Virus genome (UHGV): UHGV-1380027
Strand: one strand, 5' to 3'
Length of the DNA stretch: 64,000 nucleotides
DNA from: a virus
Shown piece by piece: positions 49,210-57,567 of the stretch. The position numbers and the translations under genes were made by a program. Position 1 is the first letter of the stretch. Each line of letters begins with the position of its first letter. The notes under the pieces are model-generated. The model saw only the letters and a list, made by a program, of their open reading frames with translations, searched no databases and had not been told where the DNA came from.

Positions 49210-49286
49210 TGGTCTCCACGGAGTGATTCGAACACTCGACCTCCTGATCCCAAATCAGGCGCTCTACCAAGCTGAGCTACGCGGAG
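49210..49286 (-). tRNA. tRNA-Pro (anticodon TGG)
   Basis: Hand-folded cloverleaf: acceptor CTCCGCG/CGTGGAG (one G-U), T arm GAGTG-TTCGAAT-CACTC, anticodon loop TTTGGGA, encoded CCA. Confidence 0.7.
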
Positions 49287-49297
49287 TATTTATTATT

Positions 49298-49372
49298 TGG
49301 TGGCCCTGGGTGGAATTGAACCACCGTCTGGCGATTATGAGTCGCTTGCTTGAACCTTCCAGCTACAGGGCC
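49298..49372 (-). tRNA. tRNA-Met or Ile2 (anticodon CAT)
   Basis: Acceptor GGCCCTG/CAGGGCC, T arm GGTGG-TTCAATT-CCACC, anticodon loop CTCATAA, encoded CCA; CAT cannot distinguish Met from lysidine-modified Ile. Confidence 0.65.
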
Positions 49373-49373
49373 A

Positions 49374-49449
49374 TGGTGCTGATGGCAGGACTTGAACCTG
49401 CAACCTATTGATTACAAATCAATTGCACTGCCAATTGTGCTACATCAGC
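49374..49449 (-). tRNA. tRNA-Thr (anticodon TGT)
   Basis: Acceptor GCTGATG/CATCAGC, D stem GCAC/GTGC, anticodon stem ATTGA/TCAAT with loop TTTGTAA, T arm GCAGG-TTCAAGT-CCTGC, encoded CCA; 1-nt spacer from the previous tRNA. Confidence 0.75.
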
Positions 49450-49453
49450 AAAA

Positions 49454-49552
49454 GGTGCTAGGTGATGGAATCGAACCATCTATGTATTCAACGACTACCT
49501 CGTCTATTTTCAGGATTAAAAATCCTCGCCCTTGCCAAAGGGCTTACCTAGC
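49454..49552 (-). tRNA. atypical tRNA-like gene (about 99 nt; anticodon loop TTTTTAA, possibly TTT)
   Basis: Perfect 7-bp acceptor GCTAGGT/ACCTAGC, D arm GCCC-TTTGGCAA-GGGC, T arm GATGG-TTCGATT-CCATC, but about 31 nt between anticodon stem and T arm; no encoded CCA. Confidence 0.35.
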
Positions 49553-49650
49553 TCAGTATGTTGACCATGTTGCTAGTCGGCGATGACGACTGTAACATTT
49601 GATAATCCGGTTCTGCTTCCGGCTTTCGCTTAATTACAAGGTCAACAATA

Positions 49651-49741
49651 TGGCAGAGGATAATGGAATCGAACCATCATCGAGTCATCCTCAACGGGAC
49701 GGTTTTCAAGACCGCTTGAGCACCATTGCTCCCTACCCTCT
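49651..49741 (-). tRNA. tRNA-Ser (anticodon TGA)
   Basis: Acceptor AGAGGGT/ATCCTCT (one G-U), anticodon arm GCGGT-CTTGAAA-ACCGT as in bacterial tRNA-Ser, long variable arm, T loop TTCGATT, discriminator G, encoded CCA. Confidence 0.6.
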
Positions 49742-49855
49742 TTTATAAACAATACTGATAATGACACTGATTTTCGAGCAGTTAGTGACTAGTATAAACG
49801 ACGATAAATATCAATGCCATTATCTGTATGATTTATGCATTTAAAAATATAAATT

Positions 49856-49943
49856 TGGTGGTGAGTGATGGAGTCGAACCACCCGAATCGCAATGATAAC
49901 AGATTTACAGTCTGCCCCGCTACCCCTACGGAATTAACTCACC
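49856..49943 (-). tRNA. tRNA-Tyr (anticodon GTA)
   Basis: Acceptor GGTGAGT/ACTCACC, anticodon arm GCAGA-CTGTAAA-TCTGT, long variable arm, T arm GGTGG-TTCGACT-CCATC, encoded CCA. Confidence 0.7.
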
Positions 49944-50073
49944 TAAATACTAATATTTAAATTCTTTTTAAAATAGCTAGTGTTCTAACCACTAACTATG
50001 AGGTATCGGTAAAGTGGTTACCGCCACTTGCCGAAGATTTACTCTGCTAAAGTAAGCTACATTAAAAAGAACT

Positions 50074-50148
50074 TGGCACCCCGTACTGGACTCGAACCAG
50101 TGTCAACGGCTTAGAAGGCCGCTGCTTTATCCACTAAGCTAACAGGGC
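50074..50148 (-). tRNA. tRNA-Arg (anticodon TCT)
   Basis: Acceptor GCCCTGT/ACGGGGT (two G-U), D stem GCTT/AAGC, anticodon arm GCGGC-CTTCTAA-GCCGT, T arm ACTGG-TTCGAGT-CCAGT, encoded CCA. Confidence 0.65.
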
Positions 50149-53084: not shown

Positions 53085-53639
53085 TTACTCCCCGCTGTCA
53101 ATAGCAAGACTCATTGCAATACGGTATGCCTCTTCTAATGGTAAGAGTCTCCCCCACACATCCCAACCGACATCAAACTGCCTGCCAAACAACTGCTGTG
53201 TGGTTCCGTGAGCATGACCGAACAGTTGGACTGATCCGTGAGGCTTTCTGTTCCACTTTGCAAACTGGTAATGGCTCATACAGATCAAATTCTTGTTGTG
53301 GCGAAGCTCGTAATAATCTACAACCTCATGACCGAACTCTTTCATAATTCTGACAGTCGTCCTTGTGTCATGGTTACCACGAACAAGAATAATATGTCCG
53401 TTCAACATATTTAGAACATCTGGAAGCAATTTGTTGATATTCTTATCATTAGTGCACGCAATATCCCCCAAGTGAAACACAGTGTCTGCAGGTGACACAA
53501 CAGAGTTCCACTTGGTGATGATTCCCGCATTCATACTGTCAAGATTGTGATCATACTGAGATCTGTGTTTTTGACATGAGTCGAACTCCATTACCCGCTG
53601 GTGGAGAAAGTGTGTGTCGCTTGTTACAAAGTATTTCAT
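53085..53639 (-). CDS. calcineurin-like metallophosphoesterase
   Basis: Motifs SDTHF (DxH), GDIACTNDKN (GDxxDxG-like), LVRGNHD (GNHD/E), GHAHG; start trimmed to internal ATG 53637-53639 that matches motif spacing. Confidence 0.6.
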   Translation of the reverse strand: MKYFVTSDTHFLHQRVMEFDSCQKHRSQYDHNLDSMNAGIITKWNSVVSPADTVFHLGDIACTNDKNINKLLPDVLNMLNGHIILVRGNHDTRTTVRIMKEFGHEVVDYYELRHNKNLICMSHYQFAKWNRKPHGSVQLFGHAHGTTQQLFGRQFDVGWDVWGRLLPLEEAYRIAMSLAIDSGE

Positions 53640-53646
53640 ACATTCC

Positions 53647-54057
53647 TCATTTAAGTTTAATGCAGTTTTTAAGCTGGCGTTCCATACGATCCACAACCCT
53701 GTCTGGAACATCCTGAATGCTTTTATTACCATGGCGGTTTTCAACCACGATCACGGTATAACTATATCCATGACTGATCGCCATGTCAATATATTCTTGC
53801 ACATGTTTTTCTTTTGTAAACGTATTACTTACCACGATACGGTCGTAGCCCATACGCATCATATCTTCTACGTTATCTTTGCACCATTTTGCTGCAAGTG
53901 TTACTTTACTTGCATCCCAGTTGTAATTGCCGTCATCGTCGTACCAGAACATATCGTTCTCAAAATGTGGATACAGACCTTCTAAAGATAGCGCATTTGC
54001 CAGTGTTGATTTGCCAGACCCTGGTAGACCACGCACGATATATAGCATTTTAGACAT
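53647..54057 (-). CDS. P-loop polynucleotide kinase-like protein
   Basis: Walker A GLPGSGKST at residues 11-18 from the trimmed start; ATG at 54055-54057 preceded by RBS GGAGGG and a sigma70-like promoter; listed longer ORF would overlap the divergent plus gene. Confidence 0.55.
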   Translation of the reverse strand: MSKMLYIVRGLPGSGKSTLANALSLEGLYPHFENDMFWYDDDGNYNWDASKVTLAAKWCKDNVEDMMRMGYDRIVVSNTFTKEKHVQEYIDMAISHGYSYTVIVVENRHGNKSIQDVPDRVVDRMERQLKNCIKLK

Positions 54058-54085
54058 AGTAACCCTCCGTTTTAATTTTAACGAT

Positions 54086-54114
54086 AGTATACCTAACTGT
54101 TTTGTTAATTTCAA
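54086..54114 (-). promoter_or_regulatory. sigma70-like promoter for the kinase/phosphoesterase operon
   Basis: On the minus strand TTGAAA, 17-bp spacer, TATACT, about 30 nt upstream of the kinase ATG. Confidence 0.5.
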
Positions 54115-54148
54115 GTGTTGACACCAGGTTATTTGTGTGGCAGGATAA

Positions 54149-55093
54149 ATGGACAAAATGACAAATGAGGAATGTATGATGAAGTATTTTAATGCAGACG
54201 ACCTGGTTGACAAAGGTCTTGTAACCAGTCGGTATTATCCAGATCTTGGATTAAAGATCTACAAATACGCCAGAAAAGTATTCTACAACAACTTATGGCA
54301 CTTATCTCCGCGTTTACTTGAGTGCCGAGGCATTGTTGTTGGTAATGAAGGGAATGTTGTGGCATGGCCCTTCACAAAAGTATTTAATTTGGGAGAAAAC
54401 TCCACCAACCTGCCTGACAATAAGCTTGTGACGGCGGTAGAGAAAAAGAACGGATTCCTTGGTGTGGTATCATCTCATAAAGGTGAGCTATTGTTCTCAA
54501 CAACCGGGTCTCTTGATTCTCCATACTGTAACCTCGCAAAGGAAACAATCCAGGAGCAATGTGGTAATTTAGATCTCATCAAAAAGGTTATGGGCCATGA
54601 AAACATGACATTCATGTTTGAAATTTGTCACCCTTCAGATCCGCATATTGTTCAGGAAGACCATGGCGCATATTTGATAGGTTGCAGATATAATGATTCT
54701 GGAATAATGCTACCAGAAGCAGCTTTAGATGGGATTGCCAAATACCTTGGTGCAAAACGTCCTCACACTGTGCGTGAAATTCCGTTCAGCTATGCAAAAG
54801 AATTAGCTGCAGAAACAAGAGGTGAAGGGTATATGATTCGTAAGCCTTACTACCCTTATGATCTGCAGCTGAAGATCAAGTCTCCATACTATTTGGCACG
54901 GAAGGCCGTAATGAGGGGTAAAGCTTGGAAGATTTGGGATGATGATATCTTTAAACGTATTGACGAAGAGTTTTACGGCATGGTAAACTTCATTCGTAAC
55001 AATTACACAGAAGATGTGTGGAACTGCCTCCTAGAGCAGGAACGCCGTGAGATACTTGACTGCTATTTCCACAACGAGGACTATATGCAATGA
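54149..55093 (+). CDS. RNA ligase-like nucleotidyltransferase
   Basis: 314 aa; candidate ligase motif I in VEKKNGFLGVV (KxNG); true start probably ATG at 54176 or 54179 after RBS GAGGA; divergent from the kinase/phosphoesterase genes. Confidence 0.4.
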   Translation: MDKMTNEECMMKYFNADDLVDKGLVTSRYYPDLGLKIYKYARKVFYNNLWHLSPRLLECRGIVVGNEGNVVAWPFTKVFNLGENSTNLPDNKLVTAVEKKNGFLGVVSSHKGELLFSTTGSLDSPYCNLAKETIQEQCGNLDLIKKVMGHENMTFMFEICHPSDPHIVQEDHGAYLIGCRYNDSGIMLPEAALDGIAKYLGAKRPHTVREIPFSYAKELAAETRGEGYMIRKPYYPYDLQLKIKSPYYLARKAVMRGKAWKIWDDDIFKRIDEEFYGMVNFIRNNYTEDVWNCLLEQERREILDCYFHNEDYMQ

Positions 55094-55440
55094 AGAAGTT
55101 GATCGTGTGGCTGGATGACTTGAGAGATCCGTCAAATTATGGGATCCCCGATGCTATTTGGCTAAAGAATTCCTCTGAGTTTATGGATTTTATTAACGAT
55201 AAGGGAAAGCTCTACAGGCGCGTTTCTGAGTGGCACATGGACAACGACCTTGGAGAGGTATTTGAAGGGTACGATTGCCTATCTATGCTGGAGGAAAAAT
55301 TTGTATTTGGTAAGCCTCCTGTAGTTGACAACGTGAAGATTTTCGTGCATACTTCTAACCCATCAGCGGCTCGTAAATTCATGCTTGCTGCTGACTCGTT
55401 TAAAAAGTTTGGAATAGAGATTAAACAAAACATCTACTGA
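55090..55440 (+). CDS. receiver-like (CheY-fold) small protein
   Basis: 116 aa; LIVWLDD beta-strand start, acidic cluster HMDNDLGE, HTSNP and RKF spaced like receiver-domain landmarks; inference only. Confidence 0.3.
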   Translation: MKKLIVWLDDLRDPSNYGIPDAIWLKNSSEFMDFINDKGKLYRRVSEWHMDNDLGEVFEGYDCLSMLEEKFVFGKPPVVDNVKIFVHTSNPSAARKFMLAADSFKKFGIEIKQNIY

Positions 55441-55448
55441 GGACACTT

Positions 55449-56210
55449 ATGCGACGACTGATCATTATCTCCGGTGCTGGTTTGAGCGCTGAATCTGGTA
55501 TCCCAACTTTCCGATCTGGTGGCACTGCAATGTGGGAGAATTTCAGCATCGATGAGGTGTGTAACATCCACACCTTTGCCAAGAACTACTATAAGGTTCA
55601 TGACTTTTACAATGCACGGCGTGTAGCTCTTGGCAGTGTTGATCCTAACCTTGCACATCTCCGGATCGCTGAGTGGTATTCCCGCTGGTCTGGTCGTGTG
55701 ATCAACCTGACCACCAATGTAGATGATTTGCTGGAGCGTGCTGGTGTAAAACATGAAGATATTTTACATGTCCACGGATATTTGCCAGAAATAGTCTACG
55801 AGGATGATGAAGGGAGTAACGTCATTAAAGACATTGGATACTCTGAGGTAGATGCAAGCAAGTATACTTGGGTTAAGCCTAATGTAGTGTTCTTCGGAGA
55901 AGTAGCTCCAAAGTATACAGACATGTATGACCTGTTGACTTCTCTGACGAGCAATGATATGGTTATCCTTGTAGGGTGCTCCAACACAGTTATCAATTTT
56001 AACTGGGAGCTATTCCCTGCCTGTAATAAGGGGACCAAACTGCTGATCGTTAACAAATACGACTCACAGCATTTAGGGGAGAATGGCATTTCACGTAGTG
56101 ACATTTACCAGTATGAGGATCGCGGCATCCCAGTTTGGTTTAACGGGGCTGTTGACGCTTTCTCTGATAAAACATTCATTGACATCGTAGAAAACTTTAT
56201 GGAACTGTAA
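55449..56210 (+). CDS. Sir2 (sirtuin)-family protein without zinc-ribbon cysteines
   Basis: GAGLSAESGIPTFR (sirtuin NAD-binding signature), TTNVDDLLERAG (TQNIDxL-like), HVHG (catalytic His-Gly); no CxxC pairs; RBS GAGGA. Confidence 0.75.
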   Translation: MRRLIIISGAGLSAESGIPTFRSGGTAMWENFSIDEVCNIHTFAKNYYKVHDFYNARRVALGSVDPNLAHLRIAEWYSRWSGRVINLTTNVDDLLERAGVKHEDILHVHGYLPEIVYEDDEGSNVIKDIGYSEVDASKYTWVKPNVVFFGEVAPKYTDMYDLLTSLTSNDMVILVGCSNTVINFNWELFPACNKGTKLLIVNKYDSQHLGENGISRSDIYQYEDRGIPVWFNGAVDAFSDKTFIDIVENFMEL

Positions 56211-56224
56211 GCGGAGGCCTTTTA

Positions 56225-56938
56225 ATGCTGAATACTAAACTGATTGACAACCTGGAAAAACTGTCTCAGCCTGAAAACTACCTTTGGTCTGCCAACTGGG
56301 TGGAAAATTGGAACCGTGTAGCAGCTAAAGTGAAAAAATCATACACACCATTCGAACTTCAGCTGAGTTTCATTGAGGAAGAGTTCAATGAAGTTTTGGA
56401 AGAGTTGGAGAAAGGTGATGGTGGGGATCATCTCCTAAAAGAGGCCTGCGATCTTCACGTTGTCACAAGTTATGCCGCTTATCTTGTTAACGATAACCAT
56501 GAAAAGTGGTCAAACTTGTTTGATAATCCGCGAGGTCTTAAGTTTAAGATCGGTGAATTTTATGATACGCTGATCGCTGCGAAAAATACCTCTAAGCAAA
56601 GAGCGTCTGCTTACCGCTTAGCAGAGTTGTCAACAGCTTTGCTGTTCCAGCTTCGCGGTGATGTGTGCGGGATGATGCGGAAGGTTCTAAAATCTAATGA
56701 CAGCAAGTTTGCACGCGTCAACCATCTGCGGTATTCACACGGTGCCAGTGCAGATATGCCTGCTGAACAACTTATCGAGTTGGAGATTAAAGATCTTGAG
56801 CGACGCTTTGATGGTCGCTATGAAGGTTTTGTTGCTAAAGAAGAATTCTACAACGGAAATAAAGTTATCATATTCCTCGACAGTAAAGGTAAGATTATGA
56901 AGCCTTCAAGCTTTAAGGATGTAACAGAATATATTTAA
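56225..56938 (+). CDS. MazG-like all-alpha NTP pyrophosphohydrolase
   Basis: 237 aa; acidic helix pair IEEEFNEVLEELEKGD ... LLKEACDLHVV resembles the MazG EExxE...D metal-binding motif. Confidence 0.35.
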   Translation: MLNTKLIDNLEKLSQPENYLWSANWVENWNRVAAKVKKSYTPFELQLSFIEEEFNEVLEELEKGDGGDHLLKEACDLHVVTSYAAYLVNDNHEKWSNLFDNPRGLKFKIGEFYDTLIAAKNTSKQRASAYRLAELSTALLFQLRGDVCGMMRKVLKSNDSKFARVNHLRYSHGASADMPAEQLIELEIKDLERRFDGRYEGFVAKEEFYNGNKVIIFLDSKGKIMKPSSFKDVTEYI

Positions 56939-56944
56939 TAACAT

Positions 56945-56973
56945 AGCCGGGGCGATCCCGGCTTTACTTGTTT
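56945..56973 (+). terminator. rho-independent terminator
   Basis: AGCCGGG-GCGAT-CCCGGCT hairpin followed by TTTACTTGTTT immediately after the MazG-like stop. Confidence 0.55.
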
Positions 56974-57002: not shown

Positions 57003-57311
57003 ATGTACAAGCACTCCAGAGATCTTGAAAACGATGATGTGTTTGGGGATCAGATGAAAGAATTGGTTAAACTTATAGGTAGGATAGAGGATAAGTTTGA
57101 CACTAAGATCTACATCGACAGCAAAGTATTCAACCACAAAATATGGACAAATCTGTGTGTTGGACTGCATGGAGATAAAGATGTGGTAAATTTGGTTGTA
57201 ATTAAGTTCATAGTGTGGCAGAATAAAACTATAAATTATTACGATCCACACCTACTTGTTTACCCGATAAAAGACCTATTAGAGAAGGAGGACTGCAATG
57301 CCGTTATTTAA
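57003..57311 (+). CDS. hypothetical protein
   Basis: 102 aa co-oriented ORF. Confidence 0.3.
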   Translation: MYKHSRDLENDDVFGDQMKELVKLIGRIEDKFDTKIYIDSKVFNHKIWTNLCVGLHGDKDVVNLVVIKFIVWQNKTINYYDPHLLVYPIKDLLEKEDCNAVI

Positions 57312-57567
57312 TCTTGCTAAACCTGTAGAAGCACACCAGTTTGACGGAAGCTCTTCATCAGTATCTGATCTGCAACGGTGGATTGATACAGGTGTGTTTA
57401 CACCGTCACCTGTTCGGACCAGAGATATTCTTCGCATGTGTGAGCTTGTCGAGCCGTTTGGTAACCTGGTCTTGTACCAAGGGGATTGGTTAGTTGACTT
57501 TATGGGAGACTGGTTGGTAATGAGCAAAGAAGAGATGTTTAAAATTTTTAAGGAAGAGGCTGAGTAA
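57298..57567 (+). CDS. hypothetical protein
   Basis: 89 aa; RBS AGGAGGA upstream; stop overlaps the ligase start. Confidence 0.3.
   Translation: MPLFNLAKPVEAHQFDGSSSSVSDLQRWIDTGVFTPSPVRTRDILRMCELVEPFGNLVLYQGDWLVDFMGDWLVMSKEEMFKIFKEEAE

What the first reader, a model, noticed from the sequence alone, without database searches (positions are those of the whole stretch)
55449..56210. Phage-encoded minimal sirtuin lacking the zinc-ribbon module
The ORF carries the three sirtuin signatures (GAGLSAESGIPTFR, TTNVDDLLERAG, HVHG) but no CxxC pairs, so it is a minimal Sir2 core. In bacteria Sir2 domains act as deacylases, ADP-ribosyltransferases or NAD hydrolases in defense systems. A phage copy expressed next to RNA repair genes could modify host or phage proteins, or alter NAD metabolism. 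The upstream receiver-like gene ends 9 nt before it, suggesting co-expression.
Basis: partly seen in the sequence, partly recalled or inferred. Interest (0 to 1): 0.7.

Follow-up and report, generated by a model that had tools for sequence, protein, structure and literature searches.

The report
Zinc-less phage sirtuin, RNA-repair operon
The gene is a real, probably active NAD-dependent sirtuin of an rV5/FV3-type E. coli phage that has lost its zinc-binding cysteines and sits inside a tRNA-repair gene cassette. This gene family, its missing zinc site and its RNA-repair neighbourhood have already been described in the literature, and only its substrate is still unknown.

Summary
ORF 55449-56210 (+) encodes 253 aa with the three quoted motifs, three Cys and no CxxC. 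It matches Pfam SIR2 (E 1.1e-26) and PHROG 2162 (E 8.7e-109).

It is not a "minimal core". It is full length and keeps part of the small-domain beta ribbon. Only the Cys ligands and one zinc knuckle are gone.

The window is a Vequintavirus (99.4% to phage ECP2303). The gene is third in an operon of RNA ligase, cREC, sirtuin and MazG-like genes. That operon diverges from a kinase and a phosphoesterase gene and lies next to a tRNA cluster.

Homologues occur in 977 GenBank phage records. Iyer et al. 2022 name "Escherichia phage V5" as a prototype of this neighbourhood and predict a Tpt1/KptA-like RNA 2'-phosphate removal. Skliros et al. 2016 already noted zinc-less phage sirtuins.

I found no biochemical study. 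I favour a CobB/SIRT5-type acyl-lysine deacylase (0.4) over the Tpt1-like reading (0.3). The finding is already known and of moderate interest.

The parts
55449..56210 (+). Sirtuin ORF, 253 aa (stop codon included)
55473..55514 (+). NAD-binding motif GAGLSAESGIPTFR (aa 9-22; G9 A10 G11 S16 G17 F21 R22 invariant in 41 homologues)
55554..55565 (+). E-V-C-N motif (aa 36-39). C38 aligns with CobB A76 and is a marker of this sirtuin group, both Zn-less and Zn-bearing members
55605..55622 (+). FYNARR (aa 53-58). Y54 and R57 align with CobB Y92/R95 (SIRT5 FYHYRR), the class-III YxxR signature
   Evidence: Y/R present in 137 of 179 aligned sequences
55710..55745 (+). TTNVDDLLERAG (aa 88-99). N90 and D92 are kept, but the canonical Gln of TQN[IV]D is Thr89
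55767..55778 (+). HVHG (aa 107-110). H109 aligns with the catalytic His of CobB (H147)
55779..55874 (+). Remnant of the zinc module (aa 111-142). A beta hairpin is kept, no Cys remains, and the second Cys knuckle is deleted
   Evidence: secondary structure of the model; alignment with CobB and Zn-bearing relatives
55875..55901 (+). KPNVVFFGE (aa 143-151), the conserved substrate-tunnel / FGE motif (F149 = CobB F190)
54149..55093 (+). Rnl1-family RNA ligase gene, first gene of the operon. Its stop overlaps the cREC start (ATGA)
   Evidence: Pfam RNA_lig_T4_1 E 8.5e-15; PHROG 562 E 1.8e-66; junction sequence
55090..55440 (+). cREC (cyclic-phosphate processing receiver) domain protein, 116 aa
   Evidence: Pfam PF20274 E 2.2e-14; 56 stand-alone homologues, all PF20274
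56225..56938 (+). MazG-like nucleotide pyrophosphohydrolase, last gene of the operon (no Pfam hit)
   Evidence: PHROG 671 E 5.4e-22; annotated as such in phages HMD-6 and FV3
56945..56963 (+). GC-rich terminator-like hairpin directly after the MazG-like gene
   Evidence: consensus scan only
53647..54057 (-). Stand-alone P-loop polynucleotide-kinase-like gene, divergently transcribed. The start is taken from the homologue annotation; the mechanical ORF runs on to 54213
   Evidence: Pfam AAA_33 E 3.4e-10, PHROG 2071/505; annotation in HMD-6
53085..53639 (-). Calcineurin-like phosphoesterase gene
   Evidence: Pfam Metallophos E 5e-06, PHROG 547 E 4.2e-52; PDB 1xm7 E 7.1e-11
49210..50148 (-). Phage tRNA gene cluster about 3 kb from the cassette
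   Evidence: ARAGORN finds 6 genes; Rfam finds 6 tRNA matches

Best explanation
The ORF encodes an active NAD+-dependent sirtuin of the CobB/SIRT5 (class III) lineage. It belongs to a large, mostly phage-borne subclade that lost the structural zinc site once.

Shown: the complete NAD site, the catalytic His109, N90/D92, the FGE tunnel motif and the YxxR pair are all kept. The fold is that of deacylase sirtuins. The gene is third in a tightly packed operon, RNA ligase - cREC - sirtuin - MazG-like, which ends at a hairpin. The operon lies beside a kinase gene, a phosphoesterase gene and the phage tRNA genes.

Inferred mechanism: an oxygen nucleophile of the substrate attacks C1' of the nicotinamide ribose and nicotinamide leaves. 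His109 then activates the ribose 2'/3'-OH to resolve the adduct into an ADP-ribose derivative.

I think the most likely substrate is still an acyl-lysine, probably one carrying a negative charge (succinyl or malonyl type, read by Y54/R57). On this view the enzyme is a phage deacylase that restores lysines on translation, RNA-repair or ligase proteins during infection. The neighbouring cREC, MazG-like and phosphoesterase enzymes could then clear the O-acyl-ADP-ribose or ADP-ribose by-products.
For: Homology:
- About 45% identity to SIRT5 over aa 2-112 and 32% to E. coli CobB over 186 aa.
- All NCBIfam hits are CobB-type deacylase models.

Active site:
- Y54/R57 (CobB Y92/R95), F149 (CobB F190), V181 (CobB V219) and H109 are invariant across 41 homologues.

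No sign of a new RNA-binding surface:
- No conserved Lys/Arg column is specific to the Zn-less clade.
- The clade is acidic: query pI 4.9 and net charge -13; median pI of 120 close homologues 5.1.

Linkage to RNA repair is not obligatory:
- In phi92-like phages of about 150 kb the sirtuin sits among genes of unknown function, while cREC, a phosphoesterase, a DNA ligase and a MazG-like gene lie elsewhere.
- In L058 the sirtuin neighbours NAD-salvage genes.

In PMC8556138 the zinc ion is described as structural, not catalytic.
Against: - The recurrent placement next to RNA end-healing and sealing enzymes, in several different gene orders and phage lineages, is not predicted by a generic deacylase.
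- The host already has CobB.
- The clade differs from canonical deacylases at substrate-proximal positions: Q to T in TQN[IV]D, CobB G217 to N, CobB P221 to N/D, and loss of the zinc knuckle.
- The protein falls far below the curated cut-offs of all CobB equivalog models (102 against 320 bits, 121 against 243).
- No deacylase activity has been measured for any member that I could find.
Confidence: 0.4

Rival explanations
1. Tpt1/KptA analogue (the published prediction of Iyer et al. 2022). After an anticodon nuclease cuts a tRNA, cREC (or the phosphoesterase) opens the 2',3'-cyclic phosphate to a 2'-phosphate. The kinase phosphorylates the 5'-OH and the Rnl1-type ligase seals the break. The sirtuin then transfers ADP-ribose from NAD+ onto the 2'-phosphate. 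His109-assisted attack of the ribose 2''-OH releases the RNA 2'-OH and ADP-ribose 1'',2''-cyclic phosphate, which cREC, the MazG-like enzyme or the phosphoesterase degrade.
For: - The cassette maps one-to-one onto ligase + kinase + cyclic phosphodiesterase + 2'-phosphotransferase.
- I reproduced the association in independent arrangements. Vequintavirus loci have RNL-cREC-SIR-MazG. Mydo-like loci have PPE-RNL-cREC-KIN-SIR-DNA ligase. T5-like loci have SIR plus HAD_SAK_2, E 4e-20. A 607-kb phage has an Rnl1-family ligase 1.2 kb upstream. A 279-kb phage has RlaP and Thg1 2-3 kb away.
- No macro-domain partner is present.
- There are clade-specific changes around the substrate site.
- The YxxR pair could bind a phosphate.
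- The kinase lacks the 3'-phosphatase domain of T4 Pnkp: it is only 136 aa.
- The prediction is stated in PMC9503650, section 3.7.3.
Against: - It requires new chemistry for the sirtuin fold, and that chemistry has never been demonstrated.
- The hydrophobic acyl-lysine tunnel residues are fully conserved.
- The protein is acidic, and no new conserved basic residues appear relative to Zn-bearing relatives.
- A cREC plus a calcineurin-like phosphoesterase could heal the 3' end completely without any 2'-phosphotransferase (inference).
- T5-like loci show no RNA ligase within 8 kb.
- In phi92-like phages the sirtuin and cREC are unlinked.
Confidence: 0.3
2. NAD+/ADP-ribose-directed counter-defence or metabolic enzyme. 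The sirtuin hydrolyses NAD+, or acts on an NAD-derived signalling molecule or ADP-ribose adduct, to blunt host NAD-based immunity or to couple with phage NAD salvage.
For: - Some homologues sit beside NAMPT-like and PRPP-synthetase genes (L058). In KVP40-like Vibrio phages the gene has been discussed together with NAD salvage (PMC5107563).
- The neighbours (MazG-like, cREC, phosphoesterase) are plausible ADP-ribose-derivative processors (PMC9503650).
Against: - No similarity to defence NADase SIR2 models (PADLOC none), and structural similarity to them is low.
- Free NADase activity would harm the phage's own NAD supply (inference).
- Retention of the acyl tunnel and YxxR is unexplained on this reading.
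Confidence: 0.12
3. ADP-ribosyltransferase that tags a macromolecule, either a protein side chain as SirTM does or an RNA/DNA terminal phosphate, to modify host targets or protect phage tRNA ends.
Against: - No adjacent macro-domain gene, which is the defining partner of SirTM.
- Only 14% identity to SirTM, and much closer to deacylases.
- No candidate reversal enzyme could be identified.
Confidence: 0.1

Closest known systems
E. coli CobB and human SIRT5 (class III sirtuin deacylases)
   Same: Best sequence and structure matches. The GAGxS, xFR, N/D, catalytic His and FGE motifs and the YxxR pair are shared. Size and two-domain fold are the same.
   Different: No zinc-ligand Cys and a shortened second knuckle. 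Thr replaces the Gln of TQN[IV]D. Cys sits at CobB A76. The loop after GxS is altered (VINF for VYPA). The protein scores far below the CobB equivalog cut-offs. It is phage-encoded and embedded in an RNA-repair operon.
Phage 'RNA-repair' sirtuin clade of Iyer, Burroughs, Anantharaman and Aravind 2022 (PMC9503650), neighbourhood type 2 (Escherichia phage V5 / Proteus phage Mydo)
   Same: The same phage genus (Vequintavirus) and the same neighbours: T4-like RNA ligase, cREC, nucleotide kinase, MazG-type pyrophosphatase and calcineurin-like phosphoesterase. No macro-domain partner.
   Different: Nothing substantive; this window is an instance of the published prototype. The published function (KptA-like) is a prediction, and I found no test of it.
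Sir2/CobB of Vibrio phages KVP40, phiSt2 and phiGrn1, and of T5-like phages (Skliros et al. 2016, PMC5107563)
   Same: Homologous phage sirtuins (KVP40 44.5% identity over 79% of the query; T5-like about 58%). That paper already reported the absence of the zinc ligand site.
   Different: The genomic contexts differ: NAD salvage in the Vibrio phages (as discussed in PMC5107563), and HAD_SAK_2 beside NrdD in T5-like phages. That paper proposed activation of host acetyl-CoA synthetase.
Tpt1/KptA RNA 2'-phosphotransferase
   Same: Proposed functional analogue only. Both use NAD+ and release nicotinamide through attack of a substrate oxygen on C1'', followed by attack of the ribose 2''-OH (established mechanism; own knowledge). 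The role would fit the healing-and-sealing cassette.
   Different: An unrelated fold (ADP-ribosyltransferase superfamily against sirtuin Rossmann fold), so there is no homology. The activity is untested.
Defence-associated SIR2 NADases (ThsA, DSR1/2, SIR2-HerA, SIR2-pAgo, Avs5) and SirTM
   Same: The Sir2 superfamily fold and NAD+ use.

Membership tests
Sir2/sirtuin family (Pfam PF02146) | Profile match above the curated threshold over the whole domain | tested here: met
   94.3 bits against a cut-off of 24, E 1.1e-26, profile positions 1-178 of 180
Sir2/sirtuin family (Pfam PF02146) | Rossmann domain plus small domain fold | tested here: met
Sir2/sirtuin family (Pfam PF02146) | NAD-binding motifs GAGxS, SGIPxFR, N and D of TQN[IV]D, and the catalytic His of HG | tested here: met
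   G9-A10-G11, S13, F21-R22, N90, D92 and H109-G110 are invariant in 41 homologues. The Gln of the motif is replaced by Thr89.
Sir2/sirtuin family (Pfam PF02146) | Structural Zn site formed by two Cys pairs in the small domain | tested here: not met
   Three Cys, no CxxC. None of the 120 closest homologues has CxxC. 84 of 179 aligned relatives lack the site. The feature is typical rather than universal for the family.
Sir2/sirtuin family (Pfam PF02146) | NAD+-dependent catalysis with nicotinamide release | not testable with these tools
   Needs an enzyme assay
Class III sirtuins (CobB/SIRT5 deacylases) | YxxR pair in the acyl pocket | tested here: met
   Y54 and R57 align with CobB Y92/R95 and SIRT5 FYHYRR; Y/R in 137 of 179 relatives
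Class III sirtuins (CobB/SIRT5 deacylases) | Score above the curated NCBIfam CobB/deacylase model cut-offs | tested here: not met
   Best are NF001753 at 120.9 bits against 243 and NF040867 (CobB equivalog) at 102.3 against 320
Class III sirtuins (CobB/SIRT5 deacylases) | Lysine deacylase activity on (negatively charged) acyl-lysine | not testable with these tools
Phage RNA-repair-associated sirtuin clade (Iyer et al. 2022), type 2 neighbourhood | Sirtuin gene linked to a T4-like RNA ligase, cREC, a nucleotide kinase, a MazG-type pyrophosphatase and sometimes a calcineurin-like phosphoesterase, with no macro-domain partner | tested here: met
   All five neighbours lie within 2.4 kb. The window is a Vequintavirus, the genus of the named prototype. 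The paper text was read.
Defence-associated SIR2 NADases | Match to defence-system SIR2 models and a fused or adjacent sensor/partner (SLOG, HerA, pAgo, STAND, DSR C-terminal domain) | tested here: not met
SirTM (macrodomain-linked ADP-ribosylating sirtuins) | Operon or fusion with a macrodomain | tested here: not met
Tpt1/KptA RNA 2'-phosphotransferases | ADP-ribosyltransferase-fold Tpt1 domain | tested here: not met
   The protein has the sirtuin fold only. Any relation would be functional analogy, not membership.
Tpt1/KptA RNA 2'-phosphotransferases | NAD+-dependent removal of RNA 2'-phosphate giving ADP-ribose 1'',2''-cyclic phosphate | not testable with these tools
   Needs a biochemical assay

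The most novel reading that the evidence does not exclude
The sirtuin is the 2'-phosphotransferase of a phage tRNA healing-and-sealing pathway. It would be a sirtuin-fold enzyme that attacks NAD+ with an RNA 2'-phosphate instead of an acyl-lysine, and so a non-homologous replacement of Tpt1/KptA, with cREC as the matching cyclic phosphodiesterase. This was predicted in 2022, and I found no published test.
Probability: 0.3. Interest if true: 0.75.

Novelty: already known. Interest (0 to 1): 0.33.

Why it matters
The finding adds no new kind of element. The gene family, its missing zinc site and its RNA-repair neighbourhood are all in the literature and in GenBank annotation.

What remains open is the substrate. 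About 2% of sequenced phage records (977 of 50,697) carry this sirtuin, and I found no published activity measurement.

If it proves to be an RNA 2'-phosphotransferase, it would extend sirtuin chemistry to nucleic acids. It would also complete a yeast-like tRNA repair pathway in phages.

If it is a deacylase, it would show that phages rewrite the host acyl-lysine proteome during infection. Either outcome can be tested with a simple in vitro assay.

Tried and rejected
- Domain fusions as a function clue. Ten longer homologues (297-528 aa) show only SIR2, one with a WG repeat and one apparently a tandem SIR2. All 56 cREC homologues are stand-alone. No informative fusion was found.
- PDB sequence searches with the ligase, kinase, phosphoesterase and MazG-like neighbours. 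These were uninformative except for a hypothetical phosphoesterase, 1xm7.
- NADAR guess. In relatives L040, L051 and L054 a conserved 161-aa ORF sits in the slot between the kinase and sirtuin genes, where the Mydo-like loci have no gene and where no cREC was detected. It looked NADAR-like to me by eye. Pfam gives no hit, PHROG 652 has no known function, the PDB profile search finds nothing, and hhalign against E. coli YbiA gives probability 0.5%. I rejected the idea as unsupported.
- Experimental literature. Searches for work on phage sirtuins, or for the role of the TQN[IV]D Gln through SIRT5 Q140L/N141V, returned nothing usable.
- Model coordinates are not exposed to the script sandbox. I therefore could not compute surface electrostatics, and used pI and conserved-basic-column counts instead.
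- The Fisher test for Zn loss against Q-to-T (p about 1e-25) is not independent evidence. Both changes map to essentially one ancestral event on the tree.

Full report
**Observation.** The three motifs are present. GAGLSAESGIPTFR is aa 9-22, TTNVDDLLERAG is aa 88-99, and HVHG is aa 107-110. The protein has three Cys (38, 177, 192) and no CxxC.

These are true sirtuin signatures rather than chance Rossmann matches:
- Pfam SIR2 scores 94.3 bits against a cut-off of 24 (E 1.1e-26), over essentially the whole profile.
- PHROG 2162 'Sir2' gives E 8.7e-109.
- SIRT5 and CobB chains in the PDB score E about 5e-21.

The start codon is supported by a GAGGA Shine-Dalgarno sequence and by homologues that begin MRRLI. 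The upstream gene stops 8 nt before the ATG, not 9.

**Where the window comes from.** The region is 99.4% identical to Escherichia phage ECP2303 and 98.3% to phage FV3. Over 100 related records carry it. FV3 belongs to Vequintavirus, the rV5-like phages. In those records the gene is already annotated as a Sir2-like protein or NAD-dependent deacetylase.

**What kind of sirtuin it is.**
- The best solved relatives are class III enzymes: SIRT5, E. coli CobB and Archaeoglobus Af1.
- The alignment-based AlphaFold model is confident (pLDDT 89.7, pTM 0.88).
- Foldseek puts E. coli CobB with bound acyl peptide first (E about 1e-18, TM 0.75-0.85).
- Using the MG1655 cobB gene for numbering, the phage protein keeps the NAD site, N90/D92, the catalytic His109 (CobB H147), the FGE tunnel motif (F149 = CobB F190) and V181 (CobB V219).
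- It also keeps Y54/R57 (CobB Y92/R95), the class-III YxxR pair. In SIRT5 that pair reads the carboxylate of succinyl or malonyl groups (own knowledge). All these residues are invariant in 41 homologues of 54-62% identity.
- It scores far below the curated cut-offs of every NCBIfam CobB model, so it is not an orthologue of cellular CobB.

**The zinc module.** The Cys ligands are absent, but the module is not simply missing. The protein is as long as complete sirtuin cores. The model has a beta hairpin at aa 110-128 and a strand at 142-146 where the zinc ribbon normally lies. Alignment with CobB and Zn-bearing relatives shows the first CxxC replaced and about 7-9 residues of the second knuckle deleted.

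This state is a clade property:
- None of the 120 closest database homologues has CxxC.
- An exhaustive search gave 5614 relatives. Among the best 150 representatives, 54 have no CxxC and 73 have two.
- On a neighbour-joining tree, one clade of 84 sequences contains the query. It is 90% Zn-less and 93% lack the Gln of TQN[IV]D, which is mostly Thr, as in the query's TTNVD.
- Parsimony needs only about four changes of Zn state. The two changes therefore reflect essentially one ancestral event.
- The Q/T column is the only strongly discriminating column between the Zn-less and Zn-bearing groups. No conserved basic position is specific to the Zn-less group.
- A Cys at CobB A76 (the query's E-V-C-N) is shared by Zn-less and most Zn-bearing relatives, including sirtuins of a 279-kb phage.

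**Genomic context.** The sirtuin is the third gene of a compact co-oriented set:

| Position | Gene | Note |
|---|---|---|
| 54149-55093 (+) | Rnl1-family RNA ligase | stop overlaps the next start |
| 55090-55440 (+) | cREC | 8-nt spacer to the sirtuin |
| 55449-56210 (+) | sirtuin | 14-nt spacer to the next gene |
| 56225-56938 (+) | MazG-like pyrophosphohydrolase | last gene |
| 56945-56963 (+) | GC-rich terminator-like hairpin | |

Divergently transcribed from this set are a stand-alone P-loop polynucleotide-kinase-like gene and a calcineurin-like phosphoesterase gene. A tRNA cluster lies about 3 kb further on. An ATP-dependent DNA ligase follows downstream.

**Is the context conserved?** I fetched 57 viral loci encoding relatives and compared their neighbours.
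- Vequintavirus loci repeat the window's arrangement.
- Mydo-like phages of about 145 kb have the same genes in another order and all on one strand: phosphoesterase, RNA ligase, cREC, kinase, sirtuin, DNA ligase. The sirtuin stop overlaps the DNA ligase start.
- About 30 T5-like loci (104-123 kb) place the sirtuin between NrdD and a replication helicase. A HAD_SAK_2 'Swiss-army-knife RNA repair' phosphatase (E 4e-20) lies one or two genes downstream.
- A 607-kb phage has an Rnl1-family ligase 1.2 kb upstream.
- A 279-kb phage has RlaP and a Thg1-like gene 2-3 kb away.
- The link is not universal. In phi92-like phages of about 150 kb the sirtuin sits among genes of unknown function. In a phage of that size (L061), cREC, a phosphoesterase, a DNA ligase and a MazG-like gene lie elsewhere, beside NAMPT-like and PRPP-synthetase genes.
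- One locus (L058) has the sirtuin next to those NAD-salvage genes.
- Overall, 977 of 50,697 GenBank phage records encode a homologue: T5-like, Vequintavirus, Mydo-like, phi92-like, KVP40-like and jumbo phages.

[quoted passage not shown] It lists a T4-like tRNA ligase, cREC, a nucleotide kinase, a MazG pyrophosphatase and sometimes a calcineurin-like phosphoesterase, which is exactly this window. Their third configuration is the HAD association that I found in T5-like loci.

They predict that the sirtuin acts like KptA/Tpt1. It would transfer ADP-ribose to the RNA 2'-phosphate left after a cyclic phosphate is opened, and the neighbours would process ADP-ribose cyclic phosphate. Skliros et al. 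(2016, PMC5107563) had already reported that the Sir2/CobB proteins of Vibrio phages phiSt2, phiGrn1 and KVP40 lack the zinc site. They also noted homologues in T5 and other phages, and proposed protein deacetylation. I found no biochemical test of any member.

**How it most likely works.** Shown: a complete sirtuin catalytic apparatus in a conserved, probably co-transcribed RNA end-healing and sealing cassette. Inferred: the enzyme consumes NAD+ with nicotinamide release. A substrate oxygen attacks C1'' and His109 activates the ribose hydroxyl to resolve the adduct.

Two substrates fit this chemistry.

I give the acyl-lysine (CobB/SIRT5-type deacylase) reading 0.4:
- Every residue of the acyl-lysine tunnel and the YxxR pair is invariant.
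- All close structural relatives are deacylases.
- The clade is acidic (pI about 5, net charge about -13).
- It gained no conserved basic residues.
- The linkage to RNA repair is not obligatory.

A deacylase that reactivates translation, repair or ligase proteins, with the neighbours clearing O-acyl-ADP-ribose, would also fit the module.

I give the Tpt1-like reading 0.3:
- The recurrent and differently arranged RNA-repair contexts are its strength.
- So is the one-to-one mapping of the cassette onto ligase, kinase, cyclic phosphodiesterase and 2'-phosphotransferase.
- Its weaknesses are the conserved tunnel, the acidic surface, and the need for chemistry never shown for this fold.

NAD-directed counter-defence or metabolism (0.12) and macromolecular ADP-ribosylation (0.1) are less supported.

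**Verdict.** The residual interest is the untested substrate question, which a simple pair of in vitro assays would settle.

Noticed in passing
window 49454-49552 (-), within the tRNA cluster 49210-50148: ARAGORN calls a 99-nt 'tRNA-???' with a four-base anticodon (atcc). Rfam scores it as a weak tRNA, 37.5 bits against a cut-off of 29. Rfam also finds a tRNA at 49859-49943 that ARAGORN missed, and it misses ARAGORN's tRNA-Ser at 49651-49741. This could be an unusual, intron-bearing or degenerate phage tRNA.
   Followed up: partly
L040:7302-7787, L051:7079-7561, L054:7090-7572: In these 146-149 kb relatives the phmmer scan detected no cREC. A conserved 161-aa ORF of unknown function (PHROG 652; no Pfam or PDB match) lies between the kinase and sirtuin genes, a position where the Mydo-like loci have no gene. 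It looked NADAR-like to me by eye, but hhalign against E. coli YbiA gives probability 0.5%.
   Followed up: partly
window 55713-55715 (Thr89) and relatives: Loss of the zinc Cys ligands goes with replacement of the canonical Gln of TQN[IV]D, mostly by Thr. The counts are 80 Zn and Gln, 76 no Zn and no Gln, 15 Zn and no Gln, and 8 no Zn and Gln, out of 179. It is the only strongly discriminating column between the two groups. The effect on NAD or substrate handling is unknown.
   Followed up: partly
L061:5376-14662 (152-kb phi92-like phage): cREC, a calcineurin-like phosphoesterase, an ATP-dependent DNA ligase and a MazG-like gene cluster next to NAMPT-like and PRPP-synthetase genes. No sirtuin, RNA ligase or kinase lies within 10 kb. 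So cREC also associates with NAD salvage independently of the sirtuin.
   Followed up: partly
L057:8713-12642 (279-kb phage): A Zn-bearing relative of the sirtuin is followed directly by a nucleoside 2-deoxyribosyltransferase-like gene, and 2-3 kb away by RlaP and Thg1-like genes. This is another RNA-repair-flavoured context, and I cannot tell whether Iyer et al. 2022 list it.
   Followed up: no
window 53647-54213 (-) versus 54149 (+): The mechanical ORF for the kinase starts at TTG 54213 and would overlap the RNA ligase start. Homologue annotation and the P-loop position indicate that the real start is ATG 54057. That leaves a 91-bp divergent intergenic region holding several promoter-like sites for the minus strand.
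   Followed up: partly
and one search hit lists: 18-25 GenBank records named 'Campylobacter phage' (for example A140, 140,874 bp, host given as C. jejuni) carry this Vequintavirus region at about 92% identity. The host and organism labels of those records look doubtful.
   Followed up: no
window 57003-57567 (+): Two small conserved ORFs of unknown function (102 aa, PHROG 7684; 89 aa, PHROG 14585) lie between the MazG-like gene and the DNA ligase. They travel with the cassette in Mydo-like phages, though at different positions.
   Followed up: no
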